Source: a virus (lineage: Duplodnaviria; Caudoviricetes). From it: a stretch of 64,000 nucleotides of DNA. The stretch lies in the IMG/VR virus record IMGVR_UViG_3300050156_000143, positions 128,001 through 192,000 of that record. One strand, given 5' to 3'. The notes beneath the pieces were generated by a model. The model was not told the DNA's origin. It ran no database searches and was given only the letters and a program-made list of their open reading frames with translations. Of the stretch, positions 24,287 through 60,715 are shown in pieces. The number at the start of each line of letters is the position of its first letter. The first letter of the stretch is position 1. The translations under genes and the position numbers were made by a program.

Positions 24287-25236
24287 AAGTAAGTGACGAT
24301 TGGAGAAAATCTTTAATGAAAGAGTATCTAATCAATGGTGAGCACTACCGTTTAAACGTGTTTGAGAAGATTGAAACAAAAGAACAGGCGTATTTGATTG
24401 GGTACTTGGCAGGTGATGGTGGATATAATCCACCCACCCATAAAAGAAACCCTAGACTGTATGTGAGTTCCATTGACAAACCCTTGATCGAATCAATTAA
24501 GCAGGAATTTTGTCCAGACGGTGTCGTTGGATCGCGTGTGCCAATTAATAACACTGCCGGTTATTCCATCGTGAGCAGTAACTCAGCATTCACGTTGAAT
24601 TTCAGCAGTAAGTTTGAAGAATGTTTCAACAAGTTTGGTATCCTGTCAAAGAAAGTTGATCGAAAGTTGGTCAATATTTCCAAGAAAAATATGAAATACT
24701 ATGTGCTGGGTTTATTTGATGCAGATGGACACATTTCATACGGGCACCGAAAAGATCGCAACCGATTGTGGGCCAATTTTGGGATAACTCATCAATCGTT
24801 CGATATTTTGTCCAAGGTGCAGGAATTTTTGATGAATGAGTTGAATGTGTGTTCAAGCGTGAAGCAGCGAAAAGACGAACACTGTTTGGATTTGAAATTT
24901 TCTAAAATAGAATCGGTTGCTAAAGTGTTGAACTGGATGTACGAAGATAAGCCAAAATTCTACAGCCAGGTGAAATACAACCGTTATGAGAAATTTTTAG
25001 AGTTAATTTGAGATAAACGTGGCACTCCAACCTTATGCCACCTAAACGGGTTAAAACTGGAAAGCTAAGTCAAACGATACGCTAATCAGTTACCACTCTT
25101 GGGAAGCCAGCTTTAGTACCAAGAAGGTTCAGAGACTAGACAGTGAGAAGGCAATCAATAATCTGTCCTAAGAAATCCGTGGCTCTTGTAGCTAAGAGAT
25201 AGTCCGATCCTACAGGAAACTGTAGACAAATTTAAG
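24287..25236 (+). mobile_element. Group I intron 1 in nrdJ
   Basis: Exon ends in U (GGT|AAG), intron ends in G (TTTAAG|GTAAGA); splicing restores ISGG-VRRSATICLFS; core elements TCAGAGACTA and AGATAGTCC; P9 hairpin ctacaggaaactgtag. Confidence 0.9.
24316..25011 (+). CDS. Intron-encoded double-motif LAGLIDADG homing endonuclease
   Basis: YLIGYLAGDGG and YVLGLFDADGH. Confidence 0.9.
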   Translation: MKEYLINGEHYRLNVFEKIETKEQAYLIGYLAGDGGYNPPTHKRNPRLYVSSIDKPLIESIKQEFCPDGVVGSRVPINNTAGYSIVSSNSAFTLNFSSKFEECFNKFGILSKKVDRKLVNISKKNMKYYVLGLFDADGHISYGHRKDRNRLWANFGITHQSFDILSKVQEFLMNELNVCSSVKQRKDEHCLDLKFSKIESVAKVLNWMYEDKPKFYSQVKYNRYEKFLELI

Positions 25237-43106: not shown

Positions 43107-43183
43107 CGGAGTATAGCGCAGTTTGGTAGCGCATCTGCTTTGGGAGCAGAGGGTCGTAAGTTCGAGTCTTACTATTCCGACCA
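43107..43183 (+). tRNA. tRNA-Pro(TGG)
   Basis: Cloverleaf, CCA end; TAAATA at 43094. Confidence 0.95.
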
Positions 43184-43191
43184 GTTTGATA

Positions 43192-43267
43192 TGGAACATA
43201 GCTCAGTCGGTAGAGCAACGGACTTTTAATCCGTGGGTCATGGGTTCGATCCCCATTGTTCCAACCA
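43192..43267 (+). tRNA. tRNA-Lys(TTT)
   Basis: Cloverleaf, CCA end. Confidence 0.95.
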
Positions 43268-43274
43268 AGGTTTT

Positions 43275-43363
43275 GCGCGAGTGGTGGAATTGGTGGACAC
43301 ACTTGGTTTAAGCCCAAATGCTCTTGATTGAGCGTAAGAGTTCGAGTCTCTTCTCGCGCACCA
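43275..43363 (+). tRNA. tRNA-Leu(TAA)
   Basis: Long variable arm, CCA end. Confidence 0.93.
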
Positions 43364-43371
43364 AAATATAG

Positions 43372-43450
43372 GCTGAATTAGCTCAGTTGTTGGCAGAGCG
43401 CCAGTGCTGTAAACTGGAGGTCATCTGTTCGAGTCAGATATTCAGCACCA
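43372..43450 (+). tRNA. tRNA-Thr(TGT), non-canonical anticodon loop
   Basis: G1-C72 and C2-G71; loop GC-TGT-AA (C33 instead of U33). Confidence 0.75.
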
Positions 43451-43457
43451 ACATTCT

Positions 43458-43545
43458 GGAAACATGGGGGAGTGGTTTAACCCAACAGTCTTGAAAACTG
43501 TCAAAGAGCAATCTTTCGTGAGTTCAAATCTCACTGTTTCCGCCA
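43458..43545 (+). tRNA. tRNA-Ser(TGA)
   Basis: Long variable arm, G73, CCA end. Confidence 0.95.
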
Positions 43546-45481: not shown

Positions 45482-45560
45482 GCGGGTAGACAAGTGCAAA
45501 GGGCGCACAACTGATTTCCAATCAGTAGATCGCAGGGTTCGATTCCCTCTACCCGCTCCA
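45482..45560 (+). tRNA. tRNA-Gly(TCC), possible 8/4 fold
   Basis: GCG acceptor start, U73, anticodon TCC. Confidence 0.85.
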
Positions 45561-45566
45561 TGATTT

Positions 45567-45661
45567 CTGCCCTTAGTTCAATGGATAGAACAACTGCCTT
45601 CTAAGCAGCATTAGATCAAACTATGGTCAAGGTGTCGGTTCGAGTCCGGCAGGGCAGGCCA
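45567..45661 (+). tRNA. tRNA-Arg(TCT) with a 24-nt variable arm
   Basis: CT-TCT-AA loop, Arg-type D arm, extra hairpin at 45610-45633, CCA end. Confidence 0.85.
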
Positions 45662-51514: not shown

Positions 51515-52774
51515 ATGGAACAAGATTACAACTTCATCGATGGCGTTCACGTTGGTATCAAAGCCTGGACTAAGGGTGTGCAAATGGAAGATGCTGCACG
51601 CCAACAATTGCTCAACATTTCATCACTGCCTTTTATCCATAGTCACATCGCGGTGATGCCCGATGTGCATTACGGTCTTGGTGCAACAATTGGCAGTGTG
51701 ATTGCCACAAAGGGCGCCATCGTTCCCGCTGCCGTGGGCGTTGATCTTGGCTGCGGTATGTTCGCACAACGCACGTCATTGGTCGCATCAGATTTGCCCG
51801 ACAACTTGCATGCCCTTCGCAGCAACATCGAGTCCAAGATTCCCCACGGTCGCACTAACAATGGCGGTCAAGGTGATCGCGGAGCGTGGCACAACGTTCC
51901 AGATGACGTTTACAAACGCTTGACTCCCAGTTTAACCGCATTGTCGGCCATCACTGAAAAACACCCCAAACTACAACGTGCGGCGCAACGTGCAGCAAAC
52001 CATTGTGGAACACTTGGTACTGGCAACCATTTTGTGGAAGTTTGCCTGGATGAGGAACAGCGTGTGTGGATCATGCTGCACTCGGGTTCACGTGGGATTG
52101 GCAACGCAATTGGCACTTATTTCATCGAACATGCTAAGAAAGATATGCAACGCTGGTTTATCAACTTGCCCGACCAAGATTTGGCATATATTCCGCAGGG
52201 TTCCGAGTTGTTTGACGACTACTGTCTGGCGTTAAAGTGGGCGCAAGATTATGCTCACATCAATCGCCAAGTCATGATGGATGCAGCGATGCGTGCTTTG
52301 ATTGAATCGGTGCCAAAACCGTTTACGTGCGACTGTGAATCGGTGCCAAAACCGTTTACGTGCGACTGTGAATCGGTCAATTGCCATCACAATTATGTGA
52401 ACTGGGAACGCCATTATGGGGAAAACGTGATGGTCACTCGTAAGGGCGCAGTCTCGGCACAGAAGGGGCAGTTTGGCATCATCCCCGGTAGCATGGGCGC
52501 AAAATCGTTCATTGTGAGTGGCAAAGGTAATCCAGAATCGTTTTGCTCATGTTCGCACGGAGCTGGGCGATCAATGTCTCGAACCGCAGCCAAAAAGAAA
52601 TTCACACTCAAAGACCACGAAATTGCCACCAATGGGGTTGAATGTCGAAAAGACGCGGACGTGATCGATGAAACCCCAATGGCGTACAAAGATATCGACG
52701 ATGTGATGAAGGCCCAAGAAAGCCTGGTGGACATCGTTCACACTTTGAAACAAATCGTGTGCGTGAAGGGGTGA
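51515..52774 (+). CDS. rtcB: RNA-splicing ligase RtcB
   Basis: MPDVH.G.GATIG, VGVDLGCG, GTLGTGNHF, LHSGSRG.G, HHNYV, RKGA, PGSMG, HGAGR, DETP.AYK. Confidence 0.96.
   Translation: MEQDYNFIDGVHVGIKAWTKGVQMEDAARQQLLNISSLPFIHSHIAVMPDVHYGLGATIGSVIATKGAIVPAAVGVDLGCGMFAQRTSLVASDLPDNLHALRSNIESKIPHGRTNNGGQGDRGAWHNVPDDVYKRLTPSLTALSAITEKHPKLQRAAQRAANHCGTLGTGNHFVEVCLDEEQRVWIMLHSGSRGIGNAIGTYFIEHAKKDMQRWFINLPDQDLAYIPQGSELFDDYCLALKWAQDYAHINRQVMMDAAMRALIESVPKPFTCDCESVPKPFTCDCESVNCHHNYVNWERHYGENVMVTRKGAVSAQKGQFGIIPGSMGAKSFIVSGKGNPESFCSCSHGAGRSMSRTAAKKKFTLKDHEIATNGVECRKDADVIDETPMAYKDIDDVMKAQESLVDIVHTLKQIVCVKG
52303..52377 (+). repeat. In-frame 33-bp tandem duplication in rtcB
   Basis: TGAATCGGTGCCAAAACCGTTTACGTGCGACTG twice, plus TGAATCGGT. 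Confidence 0.95.
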
Positions 52775-52778
52775 CACA

Positions 52779-53036
52779 ATGGACGAAACCGACTTAGCCA
52801 ATTTGTTACTCAACGATGTCCCAATAGAAATTGGCGAACGGGTGCAAATCATCAGCGGGGAATATTCTGGCAGAGTCGGAACGGTGTATGACGTGAATTC
52901 CGTGCGTGGCACTCAAACACTGGTCAAGGCACATCTAGATCAACCAGTGGACGGGCCATATTTATACGGCATGCTGCATATACACATTAGGCGCAAACAT
53001 GTAATTCGACACTGGGGGCAACATGGGAGAAATTGA
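52779..53036 (+). CDS. Family-S KOW/SH3-like small protein 1
   Basis: MDETDLANLL..IGERVQI..HW. Confidence 0.75.
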   Translation: MDETDLANLLLNDVPIEIGERVQIISGEYSGRVGTVYDVNSVRGTQTLVKAHLDQPVDGPYLYGMLHIHIRRKHVIRHWGQHGRN

Positions 53037-53271
53037 GCTAGCAAATTTACTCATGGGTGGAATTACCGTGGGTGATCGAGTTAGAGTTATTGACGCAGGG
53101 AAATCGGGAGGGTACTACAATGACGGTGAAACGGGAACGGTTCTAAGGGATGACACTATGAAAGATGACACAATATATGTGCAGTTCGATGCACACTGCG
53201 TTGCTCCCAACCGAAACGCTAACAATACTGCCTGGGTAAATGCAATGGCAGTCGAGAGAATCTGGGAGTAA
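53023..53271 (+). CDS. Family-S small protein 2
   Basis: EIELANLL..VGDRVRV..IWE. Confidence 0.75.
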   Translation: MGEIELANLLMGGITVGDRVRVIDAGKSGGYYNDGETGTVLRDDTMKDDTIYVQFDAHCVAPNRNANNTAWVNAMAVERIWE

Positions 53272-53274
53272 AAC

Positions 53275-53541
53275 ATGAACGAAAACGATGTTGCAAATTT
53301 GTTGTTACAAGACTTGCAATTTGAAGTGGGAGAACGGGTTGTCATACGAGATAATCCAATTGGGCAAGCTGCTGGAGTATGGTACGAAGGTGGAGAAACG
53401 GGGGTTATCCGTAACACTAGTATTCGCCATCCATGTGTTAAGTTTGATTTACCCAATCCCAAGTTGAAACGATTCGTCAATCACAATGGAGAACATTATT
53501 GTCACGTTGACATACGCGATCTTCGTCGTCATTGGGAGTAA
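53275..53541 (+). CDS. Family-S small protein 3
   Basis: ENDVANLL..FEVGERVVI..HWE. Confidence 0.75.
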   Translation: MNENDVANLLLQDLQFEVGERVVIRDNPIGQAAGVWYEGGETGVIRNTSIRHPCVKFDLPNPKLKRFVNHNGEHYCHVDIRDLRRHWE

Positions 53542-53544
53542 ACG

Positions 53545-53832
53545 ATGGATGAAACGTTTTTGGCAAAGTTATTGATAGGTGAATTCCAAGTTGGCGACAG
53601 AGTACAAGTCAAGTTTGGAACAAACGTTTTTGGGTATCGTGATGGCGCAACTGGCCGAATTGTCCTCATGAATCCAAATCACCCACAACGGATTTGTGCC
53701 GTTTCTTTCGACGATCCTCAAGCCATCGCAGCATCGCCAGCTAAATTAACATATAAAGAATTCGAGAATTGCCGCTGGTGCCCTGAACACCATCTAACTT
53801 ATTATTGGGAATCCGATGACACAACCTTCTGA
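53545..53832 (+). CDS. Family-S small protein 4
   Basis: DETFLAKLL..FQVGDRVQV..YYWE. Confidence 0.75.
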   Translation: MDETFLAKLLIGEFQVGDRVQVKFGTNVFGYRDGATGRIVLMNPNHPQRICAVSFDDPQAIAASPAKLTYKEFENCRWCPEHHLTYYWESDDTTF

Positions 53833-54073
53833 ACACGATGTTGCCAAAATGTTACTACACGGTACTCCATTTTCTGTTGGAGATCGGGTGGAAGTGACAT
53901 TCACATGCGACTATTACGCTAGTGGAGAACGGGGCACCATTGTGCTCGCCACAGACAGCGACGCTTACATAACGTTTGACCCACAATACGTGAACAAACA
54001 TCGATACCCATTCAATGGTCGTCCAAACTGCGCGAATGCAATTACCCAGTTTCTAACACATTGTTGGGATTAA
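53816..54073 (+). CDS. Family-S small protein 5
   Basis: EHDVAKML..FSVGDRVEV..HCWD. Confidence 0.75.
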   Translation: MTQPSEHDVAKMLLHGTPFSVGDRVEVTFTCDYYASGERGTIVLATDSDAYITFDPQYVNKHRYPFNGRPNCANAITQFLTHCWD

Positions 54074-54074
54074 G

Positions 54075-54287
54075 ATGGACGGAAACGTTTTAGCCAGCAT
54101 TCTCTTAACCGGGGTTCCGTATCAGGTTGGGGACAAGGTTCAAATAACCCACGAACATTGCCGCACTGGCGTTATTCATGAACTTCATAAACTAAACTCT
54201 GGTGATTCGTATGCCGTAGTTCAATTAGATGACTGCACAAGACGATACGTCCATGTCAGAATCTTAAACCATTATTTTGGAGAATAA
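54075..54287 (+). CDS. Family-S small protein 6
   Basis: DGNVLASIL..YQVGDKVQI..HYFGE. Confidence 0.75.
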   Translation: MDGNVLASILLTGVPYQVGDKVQITHEHCRTGVIHELHKLNSGDSYAVVQLDDCTRRYVHVRILNHYFGE

Positions 54288-54705: not shown

Positions 54706-55133
54706 AGGATCAGGCCGAAGTTACCCTCAACCAGTACGATCAACTTGTCTTTTACCGTGATTTACACCCTAGCCCTCCCATGAAAACACTATCTGATTTC
54801 CCGGTATTGGAAATTTTGGACAGGGTGGTTTTCAAAAATGGCGAACAAGGCATCTATCTCGGGGAAATGCGTGCAGGGAGTAAACGAGAACTATGCGCTG
54901 CGTTTATCGTCAATGATGGTCGCCACCCAAAATACATTCAGCCATCGGCAGTTCACCAATACGTTTCACACGTGTTCTCCCATGATGTTGAACATACTGT
55001 CAAAAATGGTATCAATTTTGCAACAAATTGCATGTACCGTGGAAAACTAAAATGGGAAGCACCATCGCTACGGTTAAAAGAAATTGACGAGCAGATTGCA
55101 AAATTGATGGAAGAACGTAGCAAGCTACTGTGA
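54609..55133 (+). CDS. Hypothetical protein (true start likely downstream, about 54702 or 54780)
   Basis: C-terminal coiled coil LKEIDEQIAKL; ends before a terminator. Confidence 0.55.
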   Translation: MQNRGFHHECNYYLHTGKNQYQKTSNWPGTTVKDQAEVTLNQYDQLVFYRDLHPSPPMKTLSDFPVLEILDRVVFKNGEQGIYLGEMRAGSKRELCAAFIVNDGRHPKYIQPSAVHQYVSHVFSHDVEHTVKNGINFATNCMYRGKLKWEAPSLRLKEIDEQIAKLMEERSKLL

Positions 55134-55134
55134 C

Positions 55135-55159
55135 AAAAAGCGGCATAGGCCGCTTTTTT
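55135..55159 (+). terminator. Intrinsic terminator
   Basis: aaaaagcggc-atag-gccgctttttt. Confidence 0.8.
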
Positions 55160-55234
55160 CATGATCCACCAAATTTATTTTCATTTTTTTCACCATTTTG
55201 TTGAAAAATGTGGTGAACTGTGGTTAAATACCTG

Positions 55235-55725
55235 CTGTGAGGGAGTTCCTACCTTGTCCCTCACAATGACCGGGGCATGACTCACCCTTACCGTGTATTC
55301 TCTCTGATCCGTGCGGAAAGCCAATTCATTTTGGTGGGGAAGCTGGATGACAAAATTAGTAGGACGATAGAGGTACAGGCCATATCAAAATGGCTTATTT
55401 AAGCTAGCAAAATTAGGAATAAAACCCATGTCACGAAAGTGATGATGGCAGTGTGAACAAGTTGGGGTATATCAAATCATATACCACCCTGGTGGATTCC
55501 AGGTTCAACAATGCGGATGAACGAGCACTGTGCAACTGATAATTGCAAACATCGGGAATAAAGGAGATGCTGGCCATCGGGTTCGGATACTGCATTAAAT
55601 TGCGACTTCGTAATGTGAATAGATAGACCCCCATAAGAACGTCTGTGCTATCTCACACCCTGCGAAGGTATCCGAACCCAATGAATATCACGTTTGCGCG
55701 TGAGTCTCACTCATGTCCAAATTTA
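55235..55725 (+). ncRNA. Candidate large structured ncRNA (B), late-promoter driven
   Basis: Starts just after TAAATA 55225-55230; helices gtgaggga/tccctcac, gccat/atggc, tcac-GAAA-gtga, ggtatat/atatacc, and a perfect 12-bp long-range helix 55579-55590/55668-55679; no credible ORF. Confidence 0.6.
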
Positions 55726-55765
55726 ATTGAGTTAAAAATTTTAAGTTAAATTATTCTTTGTAAAA

Positions 55766-56144
55766 TGATTTATAAGGAAGGCGAGCGCAGCGAAGCAAGC
55801 GAGTATTCCTTATAAATCACAGCGACTGTCAAGTCGGCTGTCTTCTTATTTGATTACCTTTCTCTCAAACGTGTTTATTCAATGTGATGAATAAAACCGA
55901 AAAGGCCACAATTGTGTCCAAATTTTTTTTATTTTTCTGGTTTAAGGTGGGTTGGAAACCTTGACGGAAAAGGTGTAGGGGGAAATTTCCAAAAACGAGT
56001 GATAGATGTATTTCCCAAAATTTTTCCCGGTGAAATTAAAGGCAAAAAACACCTATGAAATTTATAGGTTATCGGTCAAGCGAACAAGTCGCTCGCCCAG
56101 TTTTTGGCAAATCGCCCTCGATCGCTACGCTCACGAGTTCGCTT
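55766..56144. other. Candidate replication origin: two oppositely oriented hairpins with GCGA-rich loops in AT-rich DNA
   Basis: 14-bp perfect IR 55766-55779/55806-55819 around GGCGAGCGCAGCGAAGCAAGCGAG; IR 56078-56085/56137-56144 around TCGCTCGC..TCGCTACGCTC. Confidence 0.4.
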
Positions 56145-56484
56145 CACCAAAAACAAATCAGGAAATAAAGTTTTTCAAGAAACCGGGAAAAATCATAGCG
56201 AAAACAATGTCCTTCATCAGTTCAAAAATTCACCCAACGACCTGGAAATCGGCTCATGAATTTGCACAATGATGACAAAAATTTTTTGAAAAAATACAGA
56301 CACCCGCATGTAAAGTTTTGTAAAACCGGTTGACAAAAGTTGAAAACACTATGGGGCGCGGGACGGCGCCGCGCCAGAAAATTTTTCTCATGGAAAACAG
56401 TGATCGGGGTTCCGTTTTTGTGTGAAAATCTGATTTTCATGGGCCAACTGTGCCCAGCCCGGTTTTATCTACTTTTGGAGAATT

Positions 56485-56709
56485 GTGATGGATGAATTTG
56501 AATGTGCGAATTTGTTACTAAGTGGGCAATCATTTAAGATATCTGATAGTGTCCAACTAACTGCGGACACATATCCGCCCGTTCCGAATGGTGCAAATGG
56601 GGTGATCATAGCGAGAAACATCCGTAACACTCAGTATTACGTGCAATTCTCTTGTTTGCATTCTTGCGCACTGGTGGAATCCGCCCATTTGTCGTATTGT
56701 TGGGTGTAA
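56485..56709 (+). CDS. Family-S small protein 7
   Basis: DEFECANLL..FKISDSVQL..YCW. Confidence 0.7.
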   Translation: MMDEFECANLLLSGQSFKISDSVQLTADTYPPVPNGANGVIIARNIRNTQYYVQFSCLHSCALVESAHLSYCWV

Positions 56710-56711
56710 TA

Positions 56712-56918
56712 ATGATCGAACGTACATGTCATGGTGGTAAACACTTTTTTGCAAAGTTGGCGGACATAAAGCGTGGCTGGGCCAACAGTTGTAGTAAATC
56801 TTGTGCTGCACATACTAGGGAAAACCGATTGGGTCGCAATGGATATCGTGGGGTCAACGTGGCAAAATTCTTTAATGCCCACCTTTGCAGTAACAAAGAT
56901 TTGGATCGTAACAAATGA
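56712..56918 (+). CDS. Small Cys-containing (treble-clef-like) phage protein
   Basis: C..GK.F.A..ADIKRGW...CSKSCA. Confidence 0.6.
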   Translation: MIERTCHGGKHFFAKLADIKRGWANSCSKSCAAHTRENRLGRNGYRGVNVAKFFNAHLCSNKDLDRNK

Positions 56919-57151
56919 GTGATGAAATTGACGAAAATGCGCTGGCCTCTATATTGGCAGGTGATTTCCAAGTTGGGGATCGGGTTGCCCCCAGGGTCAA
57001 GTCGCGGCGGTGGATTGGGATGGTCGATAGTGTTGTTAATGGCCGCTATGGCTCGTTCGTGATTGTTAGGGTACGAGGATACACTGGGTGTATTCGGTGT
57101 GTGCCGACCGATCTCGAACATTATTTCGGAGAAACCGATGAATCACGATGA
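56915..57151 (+). CDS. Family-S small protein 8
   Basis: DENALASIL.GDFQVGDRV..HYFGE. Confidence 0.75.
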   Translation: MSDEIDENALASILAGDFQVGDRVAPRVKSRRWIGMVDSVVNGRYGSFVIVRVRGYTGCIRCVPTDLEHYFGETDESR

Positions 57152-57395
57152 TATTGTGAGTATTCTGCGAGGTGGGTTTGCCGTTGGGGATATCGTGATT
57201 GCCATTCGCATCATGCGTTCACGCAACAAAGTGATCGTGAACCCTGGTGATGTTGGCGTGGTGGATCGCGTACTGGATAATGGGTGTTGCGTGGTATTGT
57301 TCACTATGGAACTAAACTATCCGGGGTTTGAACCTTATGTGACTACGATTTACGCACCGATAGACCGCTATCTTCGCTACTATTACAAGGATTAA
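57138..57395 (+). CDS. Family-S small protein 9 (start 57138)
   Basis: DDIVSILRGGFAVGDIV..YYY. Confidence 0.7.
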   Translation: MNHDDIVSILRGGFAVGDIVIAIRIMRSRNKVIVNPGDVGVVDRVLDNGCCVVLFTMELNYPGFEPYVTTIYAPIDRYLRYYYKD

Positions 57396-57396
57396 T

Positions 57397-57645
57397 ATGG
57401 ACGAGATCGAATGTGCCAATTTGCTTAGGGGTGATTTTCAAGTGGGTGACAAAGTGCGACTTGCCGATCATTATGTCAATCAATTTCCGCACACCAAAGA
57501 AGAAGCGGGCCACCTGGCATGGCATGGTAAGGTGATTGCCACATCTTGTGTTCCAGTATCCCGTTGTCTATCCCATTGTCTGGTGCTTTATGGTGACACC
57601 ACGGAGTGGTAACCTGTAAGTAATCTGACATATTGCTGGGACTGA
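57397..57645 (+). pseudogene. Family-S small protein 10, with premature TAA at 57610-57612
   Basis: DEIECANLLRGDFQVGDKV; in-frame continuation PVSNLTYCWD carries the family C-terminal motif. Confidence 0.65.
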
Positions 57646-58790: not shown

Positions 58791-59165
58791 ATGAATTTAA
58801 CCAAGATTGTTCGTCGGGTTCGTAAAGCGTCTGAAGCAGCGATGAACGCACGGTGGTTTTCACCTTATAACGCCATTTTGATCTCCACTTTGTCTCAAAC
58901 GGAGCATGCGGTCTACGTTGCAAACAAAATGGGGCTAGAATACTCCCCAATTGTAGTAACACATTTCAGTTTGGGTGAATTTACTCGTCGCCAAGTGGCC
59001 GATGCAACGGAAACTGATGTGTTTTGTGGCGATAACGCTTGTTGTTTACTGGTGGGCGATGATGAAATGAACCGTTGGCACAATTGGGGTGATACTCCTG
59101 ACAGTTATTTTGACTCTGAACAAGTTCGATGTGAAGTGCAATCCAGGTATGCCACAGTATCTTAA
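58791..59165 (+). CDS. Hypothetical protein (start 58791)
   Basis: The upstream part of the track ORF is the terminator. Confidence 0.55.
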   Translation: MNLTKIVRRVRKASEAAMNARWFSPYNAILISTLSQTEHAVYVANKMGLEYSPIVVTHFSLGEFTRRQVADATETDVFCGDNACCLLVGDDEMNRWHNWGDTPDSYFDSEQVRCEVQSRYATVS

Positions 59166-59337
59166 ATATTGTCCGTTTTGTAAGCATGTTCCGCCAATAG
59201 ATTATGAAACTGTTCACCGTGTTGACATAATGGGGACAGTTTGGCGCGCAGGTTGTGATAACTGTGATGCGTCGATCTTGGCAGATTCTGAACTTGAAGC
59301 GATCGAGAAATGGAACACCCGTGTTAACGACGATTGA
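59149..59337 (+). CDS. Lar-family restriction alleviation-like zinc protein
   Basis: LK.CPFC..C.NC..A..EAIEKWNTR. Confidence 0.7.
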   Translation: MPQYLKYCPFCKHVPPIDYETVHRVDIMGTVWRAGCDNCDASILADSELEAIEKWNTRVNDD

Positions 59338-59815: not shown

Positions 59816-60021
59816 GATTTGGTGAGTTTTTGTATTGGTACACTGTTATGTGTGTGGTGGTTTGGGTAATGGGTTCGTGTTTGGTCAGTGTTTTTGCGGC
59901 GGATTATTTCTCGTTTGATGCCACCGTTTCAGCATTCATATTGCAACCGTTGGCTGGGATGATTGGGTTGGTTGTGTCAAAATGCACTTATCATGAAGTT
60001 TGGGAAAGGATTCGAGAATGA
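59812..60021 (+). CDS. Small membrane protein
   Basis: Two hydrophobic segments. Confidence 0.6.
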   Translation: MRFGEFLYWYTVMCVVVWVMGSCLVSVFAADYFSFDATVSAFILQPLAGMIGLVVSKCTYHEVWERIRE

Positions 60022-60329
60022 CGCCAGAAGATGACCTGATATCGGTGTTGCGTGGCTTTCAGCGCGGTGATTTGGTTACGGTTGACCCAGCTTGTCTGGC
60101 CCCGGATTGGAAAGGAATGCGATCCATGCGAACGTGTTGCGATCGTGACGTGTGGTGGCGGCCACCAGGCACGGATTCAATTCGGGAATTTGCGGCCAAA
60201 CAATCTGCATTGGTGACGGAGAGTTCACTCGAACCACGGTGGCTTGTTTGCTTGCTACTAGACGGTAGTTCGGTTTGGCTGTTCTCAGATGAAATTATCC
60301 ATTTCTATCCAGGTAGTGATCTACGGTGA
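60018..60329 (+). CDS. Family-S small protein 11 (start 60018)
   Basis: EDDLISVLRGFQRGDLVTV..IHFY. Confidence 0.6.
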   Translation: MTPEDDLISVLRGFQRGDLVTVDPACLAPDWKGMRSMRTCCDRDVWWRPPGTDSIREFAAKQSALVTESSLEPRWLVCLLLDGSSVWLFSDEIIHFYPGSDLR

Positions 60330-60715
60330 GGGACAAAATGCTTAAACAGGTTATTCTGGTGCGAAAAGATTTACACATGGGTGTTGGTAAAATTGCTGCA
60401 CAAGTTGCTCACGCGAGCATGGCGGCATTTTTGAAAGATAGTCAAACCATTGGTGATTCTCTGATAGTTCCCTTGACTGAGCACAATAAGGGCTGGATTG
60501 GAGGATCATTCACTAAAGTGTGTTTGGGTGTGAAGACTGAAGGTGAATTGCGGGCATTGCTGGAGTCAGCTAGATTGGTTGGGATTCCCCACGGCTTAAT
60601 CACTGACAATGGGCGAACAGTGTTTAATGGTGTCCCCACAGTGACATGTGGGGCTATCGGCCCTTATGATGCTACCGTGATCGACACCATAACAGGACAT
60701 TTGACACTACTATGA
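60326..60715 (+). CDS. pth2: Peptidyl-tRNA hydrolase, Pth2 type
   Basis: KQVILVRKDL.M..GKIAAQVAHAS, TKVCL, ITDNGRT, TCGAIGP. Confidence 0.92.
   Translation: MRDKMLKQVILVRKDLHMGVGKIAAQVAHASMAAFLKDSQTIGDSLIVPLTEHNKGWIGGSFTKVCLGVKTEGELRALLESARLVGIPHGLITDNGRTVFNGVPTVTCGAIGPYDATVIDTITGHLTLL

What the first reader, a model, noticed from the sequence alone, without database searches (positions are those of the whole stretch)
55225..55725. About 500-nt structured non-coding RNA candidate behind a late promoter
Seen: the first helix begins 6 nt after TAAATA. There are many hairpins, including a GNRA-capped one, and a perfect 12-bp long-range helix enclosing sub-helices. There is no credible ORF in a genome that is otherwise densely coding. 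Inference: a large phage ncRNA in the size class of ROOL/OLE/GOLLD, but I do not recognise it as any of them.
Basis: partly seen in the sequence, partly recalled or inferred. Interest (0 to 1): 0.68.

Follow-up and report, generated by a model that had tools for sequence, protein, structure and literature searches.

The report
Twin large structured RNA, jumbo phage
The gene-free stretch is very probably a real gene for a roughly 480-base, intricately folded non-coding RNA that this uncultured 277-kb T4-like phage keeps in two diverged copies; it fits no catalogued RNA family and its job is unknown.

Summary
Observation confirmed, and the "new large phage ncRNA" reading is supported. The "late promoter" detail is not.

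- **Second copy.** The decisive evidence is a diverged copy B elsewhere in the same 277.5-kb phage genome (genome about 78018-77537, minus strand).
- **Core fold.** In the alignable 129-nt core, all 22 base pairs form in both copies. Nine pairs differ on both sides and none is broken. Further helices, including the closing 5'-3' helix P1, show the same pattern by eye.
- **Gene ends.** Both copies have a sigma70-like promoter (-35, 17-nt spacer, TG-extended -10) and a terminator-like hairpin about 110-130 nt behind the fold.
- **Known families.** Rfam 15 gives nothing for either copy, even at E up to 10. The RNA is not ROOL, GOLLD, OLE, a group I intron, RNase P RNA or tmRNA.
- **Homologues.** None were found outside this genome by core covariance model or motif scans.
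- **Function.** Unknown. I favour a stable trans-acting RNA whose invariant junction and loops bind a partner.
- **Main rival.** A ColE1 RNA II-like origin pre-primer. The two most A+T-rich 60-nt spots of the genome lie directly behind the two copies.

The scan had already noted copy B, and unrelated large RNAs in this and other jumbo phages.

The parts
55201..55229 (+). Putative promoter: -35-like hexamer (55201-55206), 17-nt spacer ending in TGG, and -10-like hexamer (55224-55229)
   Evidence: Copy B has the same layout with an unrelated spacer. Genome-wide, -35, 16-18 nt and -10 together match only three times, and two of these are copies A and B. The -10 lacks the usual A at position 2, so the consensus scanner did not flag it. 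The promoter is inferred, not shown.
55236..55265 (+). 5' hairpin found only in copy A (9-bp stem)
   Evidence: Predicted in both the MFE and centroid folds. It is absent from copy B, whose RNA starts almost at the P1 strand.
55271..55287 (+). Conserved 17-nt 5' box that contains the 5' strand of closing helix P1 (55273-55285)
   Evidence: 16 of 17 bases are identical in copy B. The one differing base (55279, G in A and C in B) pairs with 55706, and its partner changes in step (C in A, G in B). I read this.
55297..55420 (+). Variable domain 1, closed by helix P2 (55297-55301 with 55416-55420). It contains helix 55307-55311 with 55344-55348 and is followed by a conserved AAAAC.
   Evidence: P2 and the inner helix form in both copies with 3 and 2 both-sided changes. 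I read this by eye and it has no statistical test. Copy B carries about 165 extra nt here.
55430..55443 (+). H1, a 5-bp hairpin capped by a GAAA tetraloop
   Evidence: Copy B has a 4-bp hairpin with a 4-nt loop and a wholly different stem at the same place.
55449..55546 (+). Invariant core. Helix Pc (55449-55453 with 55526-55530) encloses hairpins H2 (55464-55488) and H3 (55489-55502) and a 23-nt conserved strand (55503-55525). Hairpin H5 (55532-55546) follows.
   Evidence: All 22 pairs form in both copies, 9 have both-sided changes and none is broken. Slid controls give 27-52% of cells paired and 0-1 compensatory pairs. The loops of H2 and H3 and the 23-nt strand are nearly invariant. The core model R1 scores 150.6 bits for A and 141.8 bits for B, and finds nothing else in the genome.
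55579..55679 (+). Long hairpin extension found only in copy A, based on the perfect 12-bp helix
   Evidence: Copy B has no equivalent, so this part is peripheral.
55700..55718 (+). 3' strand of closing helix P1 (55700-55706 and 55713-55718, with a 6-nt bulge)
   Evidence: It pairs with 55273-55285 as 13 bp including one G-U. The 7-bp core of the helix also forms in copy B.
55719..55766 (+). A+T-rich tract directly behind the folded body
   Evidence: This is the most A+T-rich 60-nt window of the whole 277.5-kb genome (86.7%). The second most A+T-rich window lies behind copy B.
55767..55818 (+). Tail hairpin with an A+T-rich stem of 11-13 bp and a purine-rich loop of about 26 nt
   Evidence: Fold z = -3.25. 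The same 20-nt loop sequence, on a wholly different stem, lies at genome 251535 behind another non-coding RNA locus. Copy B has a diverged version.
55819..55850 (+). Terminator-like hairpin followed by a T-rich run, the probable 3' end of the primary transcript
   Evidence: Copy B has a comparable hairpin plus T-run about 110-130 nt behind its P1 helix. I read this, and the consensus scan did not list it.
55995..56345 (.). Repeat of about 350 bp that accompanies both RNA copies and is far better conserved than the RNA
   Evidence: blastn gives 87% identity over 474 bp, and the central 350 bp are nearly identical. Three 1-nt indels in A-runs put the longest ORFs of the two copies in different frames. 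No Pfam or Rfam match. Its role is unknown and it may not be part of the RNA gene.

Best explanation
**What it is.** Window 55236-55718 is the body of a gene for a compact, multi-domain non-coding RNA of about 480 nt. The host-type RNA polymerase probably starts at a sigma70-like promoter (55201-55229) and stops at a terminator-like hairpin near 55850. That gives a primary transcript of about 600 nt.

**Fold.**
- A closing helix P1 pairs the 5' box (55273-55285) with the 3' end (55700-55718).
- Peripheral domains are free to vary. Copy A has its own 5' hairpin and a 100-nt extension, and copy B has a 165-nt insertion.
- The core stays fixed: a 5-bp helix enclosing two abutting hairpins with invariant loops, a 23-nt invariant strand, and a following hairpin.

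**How it most likely works (inferred, not shown).** The RNA acts as a folded, stable molecule in trans. The invariant junction and loops form the site that binds a partner, which could be a protein, another RNA or another copy of itself. The helices serve only as scaffold. That would explain why the helices change by compensatory substitution while the loops do not.

**Odds.** About 0.85 that this is a functional structured RNA gene, and about 0.45 that it acts in trans in this way.
For: - **Paralog.** nhmmer finds one diverged copy in the same genome at E = 7e-9, and the core model finds exactly these two loci.
- **Core pairs.** All 22 form in both copies, 9 changed on both sides, none broken or changed on one side. 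Slid controls give 0-1 compensatory pairs, and 3 of 500 shuffles reach the observed value.
- **Other helices.** P1, P2, a domain-1 helix and H1 also pair in both copies with changed sequences.
- **Strand.** G-U pairs in P1, P2, H1 and the domain-1 helix would be C-A mismatches on the other strand. This agrees with the direction of the promoter and terminator.
- **Promoter.** -35-like and TG-extended -10-like elements are kept at a 17-nt spacing while the spacer is unrelated.
- **Termination.** Terminator-like hairpins follow both copies.
- **Not coding.** There is no conserved ORF.
- **Precedent.** The distantly related jumbo phage PA5oct (portal 46% identical) expresses four ORF-less RNAs of 236-619 nt, two of them at 2-5% of phage reads (PMC7318152).
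Against: - Only two sequences exist, both from one genome, so covariation has no phylogenetic depth and R-scape-type statistics cannot be applied.
- There are no expression data.
- The -10-like hexamer lacks the canonical A at position 2.
- Copy B's folding energy is not unusual (z = -0.6), and copy A folds about as well on the opposite strand.
- No partner gene is evident. The neighbours are orphan or small SH3/KOW-like proteins.
- The extreme A+T-rich tracts behind both copies are not explained by a trans-acting role.
Confidence: 0.55

Rival explanations
1. Cis-acting replication-origin RNA. In this reading the folded transcript is a pre-primer like ColE1/pMB1 RNA II, or like the R-loop transcripts of T4 oriF and oriG. 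It would hybridise with the easily melted A+T-rich DNA directly downstream and prime leading-strand synthesis. The tail hairpin would then act on the displaced strand as a primosome-assembly-like signal. The two copies would be two origins, each firing in the direction of local transcription.
For: - The two most A+T-rich 60-nt windows of the 277.5-kb genome lie directly behind copies A and B.
- The size (about 480-600 nt) and the sigma70-like promoter resemble RNA II. This comparison rests on established knowledge.
- The tail hairpin has a conserved loop on variable stems at three loci.
- Its loop matches 10 of 11 bases in ColE1 at 1332-1342, on the RNA II-sense strand. From memory, that site lies roughly 135-170 nt past the origin, where the primosome assembly site is.
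- The same 20-mer lies in a repeat-rich, A+T-rich non-coding region of two near-identical unrelated viral contigs.
- Each copy points the same way as its surrounding block of genes.
Against: - A 10-of-11 or 12-mer match is expected by chance. 32 of 200 shuffles of ColE1 gave a match, and my estimate is about 3 chance 12-mer matches between this genome and a 100-nt region.
- Cumulative GC skew shows no turn at either locus and simply follows gene orientation.
- Terminator-like hairpins sit behind the tract.
- RNA II has no helix closing its 5' and 3' ends.
- No RNA I-like antisense regulator was detected in Rfam.
- Invariant loops in a mid-molecule junction are not predicted by a primer role.
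Confidence: 0.25
2. A free-standing ribozyme, for example a degenerate group I-like RNA. The order Pc 5' strand, two hairpins, conserved strand, Pc 3' strand, one unpaired base, hairpin resembles P3, P4-P6, J6/7-P7, P3' and P8. The conserved strand also begins with a heptamer close to the group I 'R' element.
For: - The topology is read.
- The Rfam group I consensus around the R element was shown for this phage's real intron at 24978-25226.
- In copy B, a 5-nt complement of the conserved strand lies 9 nt behind H5, where P7' would be.
Against: - The group I model gives no hit even at E up to 10 on 500-1300 nt for either copy. The same model finds the real intron at 54.8 bits.
- The junctions are far too long: 10, 8 and 9 nt where group I has about 3, 2-3 and 0-2.
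- The candidate P7' lies in different places in A and B, and such a 5-mer complement is expected by chance.
- There are no flanking exons, and the RNA has its own promoter and terminator.
- No small self-cleaving ribozyme family matched.
Confidence: 0.05
3. A cis-regulatory leader or attenuator that controls read-through into the 350-bp repeat and the genes behind it.
For: - In copy B the 3' strand of P1 can instead form a 9-bp terminator-like hairpin followed by a T-rich run. This offers an alternative-structure switch.
- The 350-bp repeat follows both copies.
Against: - Copy A has no convincing equivalent alternative hairpin. I read this.
- Two further terminator-like hairpins separate the RNA from downstream genes.
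- The genes behind the two copies are unrelated, and behind copy B the next gene is convergent.
- 480 nt is very large for a leader.
Confidence: 0.05
4. Not a functional RNA. The two loci would be decaying copies of a duplicated non-coding or formerly coding segment, or a DNA-level element such as a binding array or single-stranded DNA structure.
For: - The family is confined to one genome in everything searched.
- There are no expression data.
- Folding z-scores are modest.
Against: - Neutral decay does not keep 22 of 22 pairs while changing 9 of them on both sides.
- It also does not keep loops and promoter elements while the stems and the spacer are replaced.
- Several G-U pairs make the structure specific to the transcribed strand.
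Confidence: 0.05

Closest known systems
ROOL (Rfam RF03087) and GOLLD (RF01998), and more loosely OLE (RF01071): large 'ornate' RNAs often carried by phages and prophages
   Same: Size class of about 450-800 nt. A multi-domain fold with conserved junctions and loops. Phage-borne, with its own transcription unit and no known function. ROOL and GOLLD form RNA-only multimers (bioRxiv 10.1101/2024.12.08.627333, listed). The complementary invariant loops of H2 and H3 would allow loop-loop pairing between molecules, but this is only an inference.
   Different: No sequence or structure match to any of them in Rfam 15, even at E up to 10. It is not next to tRNA genes, since the tRNA cluster lies about 10 kb away. 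It is known from one phage genome only, in two copies.
ColE1/pMB1 RNA II pre-primer and its origin layout (RNA II, origin, primosome assembly site)
   Same: A sigma70-type promoter driving a structured RNA of about 500 nt. It is followed by the most easily melted DNA of the genome, and then by a hairpin whose loop resembles the ColE1 sequence downstream of the origin on the same strand.
   Different: No homology to RNA II, and no RNA I match in Rfam. The fold is closed by a 5'-3' helix. Terminator-like hairpins follow the tract. The loop similarity is within chance expectation. The host replisome of a T4-like phage is not known to need a PriA-type site.
RNA-seq-defined 'lncRNAs' of jumbo phage PA5oct (ncRNA001-004; PMC7318152)
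   Same: ORF-less, promoter-proximal transcripts of 236-619 nt in a distantly related T4-like jumbo phage. Two of them are highly expressed throughout infection.
   Different: I saw no sequence similarity by eye, and the core model finds nothing in the PA5oct genome. No structure or covariation has been reported for the PA5oct RNAs.
Other large non-coding RNA loci of this same phage: X and Z at genome 30.2 and 251.1 kb, and Y at window 4272-4825
   Same: The same kind of locus, a 0.5-0.8 kb ORF-free gap. Z shares the tail hairpin loop. Y shares 16 of 17 bases of hairpin H3.
   Different: nhmmer finds no similarity between the bodies of A/B and those of X, Z or Y. X and Z are paralogs of each other only.

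Membership tests
ROOL / GOLLD / OLE / raiA / HEARO (Rfam large ncRNAs) | Match to the family covariance model at or above the gathering score | tested here: not met
   No match at gathering thresholds on the whole window. None at E up to 10 on 55000-56300, on 55230-55730 or on copy B.
Group I intron (RF00028) | Match to the covariance model | tested here: not met
   No hit at E up to 10 for either copy. As a positive control, the same model finds the intron at 24978-25226 at 54.8 bits.
Group I intron (RF00028) | P3-P8 and P4-P6 core with short junctions and a P7 guanosine-binding helix at a fixed distance behind P8 | tested here: not met
   The order of helices is compatible. However the junctions are 8-10 nt long, and the only P7' candidates lie 9 nt (B) and 41 nt (A) behind the P8-like hairpin.
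Group I intron (RF00028) | Insertion in a host gene with flanking exons | tested here: not met
   The upstream gene ends with a stop codon and a terminator at 55133-55160. The RNA has its own promoter-like element and terminator.
tmRNA / tRNA-like | Detection by ARAGORN, with an acceptor or T-arm module | tested here: not met
   ARAGORN finds no gene in 55000-56500, and there is no Rfam tmRNA or tRNA hit there.
RNase P RNA | Match to an RNase P model, with the conserved P4 regions | tested here: not met
   No RNase P family matched at E up to 10. From memory, the universally conserved CR-I and CR-V sequences are not present in both copies.
ColE1-type RNA II origin | Easily melted or hybrid-forming DNA at the 3' end of the structured transcript | tested here: met
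   The tails of A and B are ranks 1 and 2 among the most A+T-rich 60-nt windows of the genome.
ColE1-type RNA II origin | Primosome assembly site downstream on the displaced strand | tested here: inconclusive
   The tail-hairpin loop matches 10 of 11 bases at ColE1 1332-1342 on the RNA II-sense strand. However 32 of 200 shuffles of ColE1 also gave a match.
ColE1-type RNA II origin | Antisense RNA I regulator, a persistent RNA-DNA hybrid, and RNase H processing | not testable with these tools
   No RNA I family hit in Rfam. Hybrid formation and processing can only be shown by experiment.
Other jumbo-phage large RNA families noted by this scan (X/Z and Y here; Rak2/121Q-type elsewhere) | Detectable sequence or structure similarity of the RNA body | tested here: not met
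   nhmmer of A and B against the whole genome finds only each other. The core model finds nothing in RaK2, 121Q, PA5oct, Atu_ph07, Phosso or PHA46. I could not build models of those other families.

The most novel reading that the evidence does not exclude
A T4-like jumbo phage starts replication at ColE1-style origins. Each large structured RNA would be an RNA II-like pre-primer that invades the genome's most easily melted tract directly downstream. The conserved-loop tail hairpin would load the lagging-strand machinery. If so, the multi-copy large RNAs now turning up in jumbo phages could be origin RNAs in general.
Probability: 0.2. Interest if true: 0.85.

Novelty: new variant of a known kind. 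Interest (0 to 1): 0.62.

Why it matters
Large RNAs with an intricate fold and no known job are rare, and each has proved instructive. ROOL and GOLLD, for example, form RNA-only cages. This locus adds a new family that seems to be lineage-specific.

It comes with a built-in comparison. Two old copies in one genome already separate scaffold from likely functional surface: the helices covary, while one junction, two loops and a 23-nt strand are invariant.

The same phage carries at least five large non-coding RNA loci in three unrelated families, so such RNAs may be a regular part of jumbo-phage biology.

The link to the two most A+T-rich tracts of the genome gives a concrete hypothesis that can be tested cheaply, namely an origin pre-primer.

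Tried and rejected
**Homologue searches that found nothing**
- blastn (distant mode) against GenBank phages.
- nhmmer against 22 RtcB-anchored IMG/VR loci.
- Core model R1 on 21 RtcB-related records, on 10 portal-related records, and on Atu_ph07, PA5oct, Phosso and PHA46 and RaK2 and 121Q. The positive control on the phage's own genome worked.

**Motif scans**
- Five motif scans of viral contigs gave only chance or coding hits, checked with R1 or by eye.
- One scan each of metagenome contigs and genome contigs gave 16 hits each, and none fits R1.

**Anchors and relatives**
- The upstream protein is an orphan, so it cannot serve as a synteny anchor.

**Readings rejected**
- *Coding.* There is no conserved ORF. 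The core reading frame that is open in B has a stop and no start in A.
- *Target pairing.* I looked for complementarity between the RNA and the 350-bp repeat and found none of 11 nt or more.
- *Relationship to X/Z.* A shared 9-mer seen in Z is not conserved in X.
- *P7-like long-range pairing of the conserved strand.* It is compatible with both copies but expected by chance, so I do not claim it.
- *Homologues of Y.* BLAST against 14 records found none.

Full report
**Where the window lies.** The window is bases 128001-192000 of a 277,516-bp IMG/VR virus record with direct terminal repeats. Its portal protein is 46-48% identical to those of the T4-like jumbo phages Atu_ph07 and PA5oct. The closest IMG/VR contigs reach only about 62%. 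The phage is therefore a rather isolated jumbo phage of the T4-like kind.

**Checking the observation.**
- TAAATA lies at 55225-55230, and the first predicted helix starts at 55236.
- A GAAA-capped hairpin lies at 55430-55443.
- A perfect 12-bp helix pairs 55579-55590 with 55668-55679 and encloses further helices.
- No ORF longer than 41 aa (sense) or 67 aa (antisense) overlaps the stretch.

Folding energy is better than shuffles (z = -3.2). The opposite strand does about as well (z = -3.1), so energy alone neither proves a structure nor picks a strand.

**The decisive evidence: a diverged second copy.** nhmmer of the region against the whole genome finds one more locus, on the minus strand at about genome 78018-77537 (E = 7e-9). 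This is copy B, and it lies outside the window.

Only about 100 nt align at the sequence level, but the two loci share the same layout.
- Both have a -35-like hexamer, 17 nt of unrelated spacer ending in TGG, and the same -10-like hexamer.
- Both have a 17-nt 5' box that is identical at 16 positions.
- Both have a conserved AAAAC, a short capped hairpin, the core, and a 3' box that pairs with the 5' box.

In the 129-column core alignment I proposed four helices. All 22 pairs form in both copies. Nine pairs differ on both sides, and none differs on one side or is broken. When the partners are slid by 1-3 columns, only 27-52% of cells pair and 0-1 pairs are compensatory.

Every substitution in a paired column is compensated. 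The loops of H2 and H3 and a 23-nt strand are almost invariant.

I read further helices by eye, without statistics.
- In the closing helix P1, the single variable base of the 5' box (G in A, C in B) changes together with its partner.
- Helix P2 forms next to the conserved AAAAC.
- One helix in domain 1 is shared by both copies.
- The capped hairpin H1 has a completely replaced stem.

G-U pairs in several of these helices fit only the strand that carries the promoter and terminator.

**The transcription unit.** The promoter reading rests on selection, not on consensus strength. The -35-like and TG-extended -10-like elements are kept at exactly 17 nt while the spacer is unrelated. The combined pattern occurs only three times in the genome, and two of those are copies A and B.

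The -10 lacks the usual A at position 2, so the consensus scan missed it. The T4 late octamer is not enriched in this genome: 5 copies against about 8.5 expected. Its 7-mer occurs 36 times against 34 expected. I therefore do not support the "late promoter" reading.

Behind the folded body come three elements in order:
- an A+T-rich tract;
- a hairpin with a large purine-rich loop (55767-55818);
- a terminator-like hairpin with a T-run (55819-55850).

Copy B has the same order of elements.

**What it is not.**
- Rfam 15 gives no match at gathering thresholds, and none at E up to 10 for copy A or copy B.
- As a control, the same library finds this phage's real group I intron at 24978-25226 and seven tRNAs.
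- ARAGORN finds no tmRNA or tRNA here.

The order of the core helices loosely recalls P3, P4-P6, P7 and P8 of group I introns, and the conserved strand begins like the "R" element. Against this, the junctions are three to four times too long. No consistent P7 partner exists, there are no exons, and the group I model scores nothing. I reject membership.

No ORF is conserved between the copies.

**Search for homologues.** I built a core covariance model, R1. It finds exactly the two copies in the phage's own genome, at 150.6 and 141.8 bits. It finds nothing elsewhere:
- 21 RtcB-related and 10 portal-related IMG/VR records;
- Atu_ph07, PA5oct, Phosso and PHA46;
- RaK2 and 121Q.

Motif scans of viral contigs, metagenome contigs and genome contigs returned only chance or coding hits.

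Within the reach of these tools, the family is confined to this genome.

**Context.**
- The RNA sits in the middle of an array of small SH3/KOW-like paralogs. It lies 2.4 kb behind an RtcB gene and 10 kb from the tRNA cluster.
- Copy B follows structural-looking genes. The neighbours therefore give no functional hint.
- Both copies are followed by a repeat of about 350 bp that is nearly identical between them, far more conserved than the RNA. Three 1-nt indels in A-runs put the longest ORFs of the two copies in different frames. It is either non-coding or affected by homopolymer errors.

**Leads from the scan's earlier notes, tested here.**
- *A+T-rich spots.* With 60-nt windows, the A tail (86.7% A+T) and the B tail (83.3%) rank first and second in the genome.
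- *Primosome-site-like 11-mer.* It lies in the loop of the A tail hairpin. The same 20-mer sits on a wholly different stem behind another non-coding RNA locus at 251.5 kb. ColE1 has 10 of the 11 bases at 1332-1342 on the RNA II-sense strand, downstream of the origin region. A match this short is expected by chance, since 32 of 200 shuffles gave one. The 20-mer also occurs in two near-identical unrelated viral contigs, inside a repeat-rich, A+T-rich non-coding region. About 0.1 such hits are expected by chance, so this is suggestive only.
- *Other large RNA loci in this genome.* X (30.2 kb) and Z (251.1 kb) are paralogs of each other. Y (window 4272-4825) is single. None resembles the body of A or B. 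Y does share 16 of 17 bases of hairpin H3.

**How it most likely works.**

*Shown:* two diverged loci keep a common multi-helix fold by compensatory change, together with an invariant junction and invariant loops.

*Inferred:*
- Transcription runs from the sigma70-like promoter to the terminator.
- P1 clamps the ends into a compact, exonuclease-resistant body.
- The invariant core is the working surface, and the peripheral domains are dispensable decoration.

I favour a trans-acting stable RNA that binds a protein, an RNA or itself. The invariant 4-nt stretches in the H2 and H3 loops are complementary to each other, which would allow loop-loop contacts between molecules.

The main rival is a cis-acting origin pre-primer of the ColE1 RNA II type. 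It alone explains the extreme A+T-rich tracts and the tail hairpin. It does not predict the closed fold, the terminators or the invariant mid-molecule junction. GC skew gives it no support.

**Verdict.** This is a real, previously uncatalogued large structured RNA gene with a twin. It is a new family within the loosely defined class of large phage non-coding RNAs. Its function is unknown, and the evidence is limited to two sequences from one genome.

Noticed in passing
window 55995-56345 and genome 77240-76890 (minus strand): A segment of about 350 bp that is nearly identical behind both RNA copies. It is far better conserved than the RNA. It has three 1-nt indels in A-runs, so the longest ORFs (88 aa and 110 aa) lie in different frames. 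It contains a 25-nt imperfect inverted repeat and ends in a -35-like hexamer. Its role is unknown.
   Followed up: partly
window 55767-55818; genome 251519-251563 (L117 about 818-872); genome about 77490-77440: A hairpin with an A+T-rich 10-13 bp stem and a 26-32 nt purine-rich loop. The 20-nt loop sequence is identical at two loci and diverged at a third, while all three stems differ. It always lies behind a large non-coding RNA locus.
   Followed up: partly
L160 778-797 and L161 3456-3475 (two near-identical IMG/VR contigs): The same 20-mer occurs in an unrelated phage. There it lies inside an 800-bp A+T-rich non-coding region full of 13-nt-period direct repeats, upstream of HNH endonuclease, terminase and portal genes.
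   Followed up: partly
window 4272-4825: Another ORF-free structured locus (Y). It contains a hairpin that matches 16 of 17 bases of hairpin H3 of the RNA studied here. The 10-mer at its centre occurs 6 times in the genome against about 1 expected, and three of those are in non-coding RNA loci.
   Followed up: partly
genome 30270-30698 and 251051-251471 (L116, L117): Two further ORF-free loci that are paralogs of each other (nhmmer E = 4e-31) and unrelated to the RNA studied here. This phage therefore has at least five large non-coding loci in three families.
   Followed up: partly
window 24978-25226: A group I intron, matched by Rfam RF00028 at 54.8 bits against a gathering score of 50.
   Followed up: no
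window 43107-43542 and 45485-45658: A cluster of seven tRNA genes.
   Followed up: no
window 51515-52774: An RtcB RNA ligase gene whose product contains a perfect tandem duplication of 11 residues just before the conserved C-terminal part. Its relatives in IMG/VR are 52-71% identical and lie in unrelated phages.
   Followed up: no
window 52779-54287, 56485-57612 and 60000-60329: An array of about eleven small (70-110 aa) paralogs with weak KOW/SH3-like Pfam hits. They flank the RNA gene on both sides.
   Followed up: no
whole genome; e.g. window 55221-55229: One 9-mer, the TG-extended -10-like element of both RNA genes, occurs 14 times in the genome against about 2 expected. At least four copies lie in intergenic DNA, two of them directly behind terminators. 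It may mark a class of promoters.
   Followed up: partly
window 55135-55160 and at least seven other genome sites: A nearly identical palindromic terminator hairpin recurs across the genome on both strands.
   Followed up: no
window 59089-59337 and 60326-60715: A Lar-like restriction-alleviation protein and a PTH2-type peptidyl-tRNA hydrolase lie downstream.
   Followed up: no
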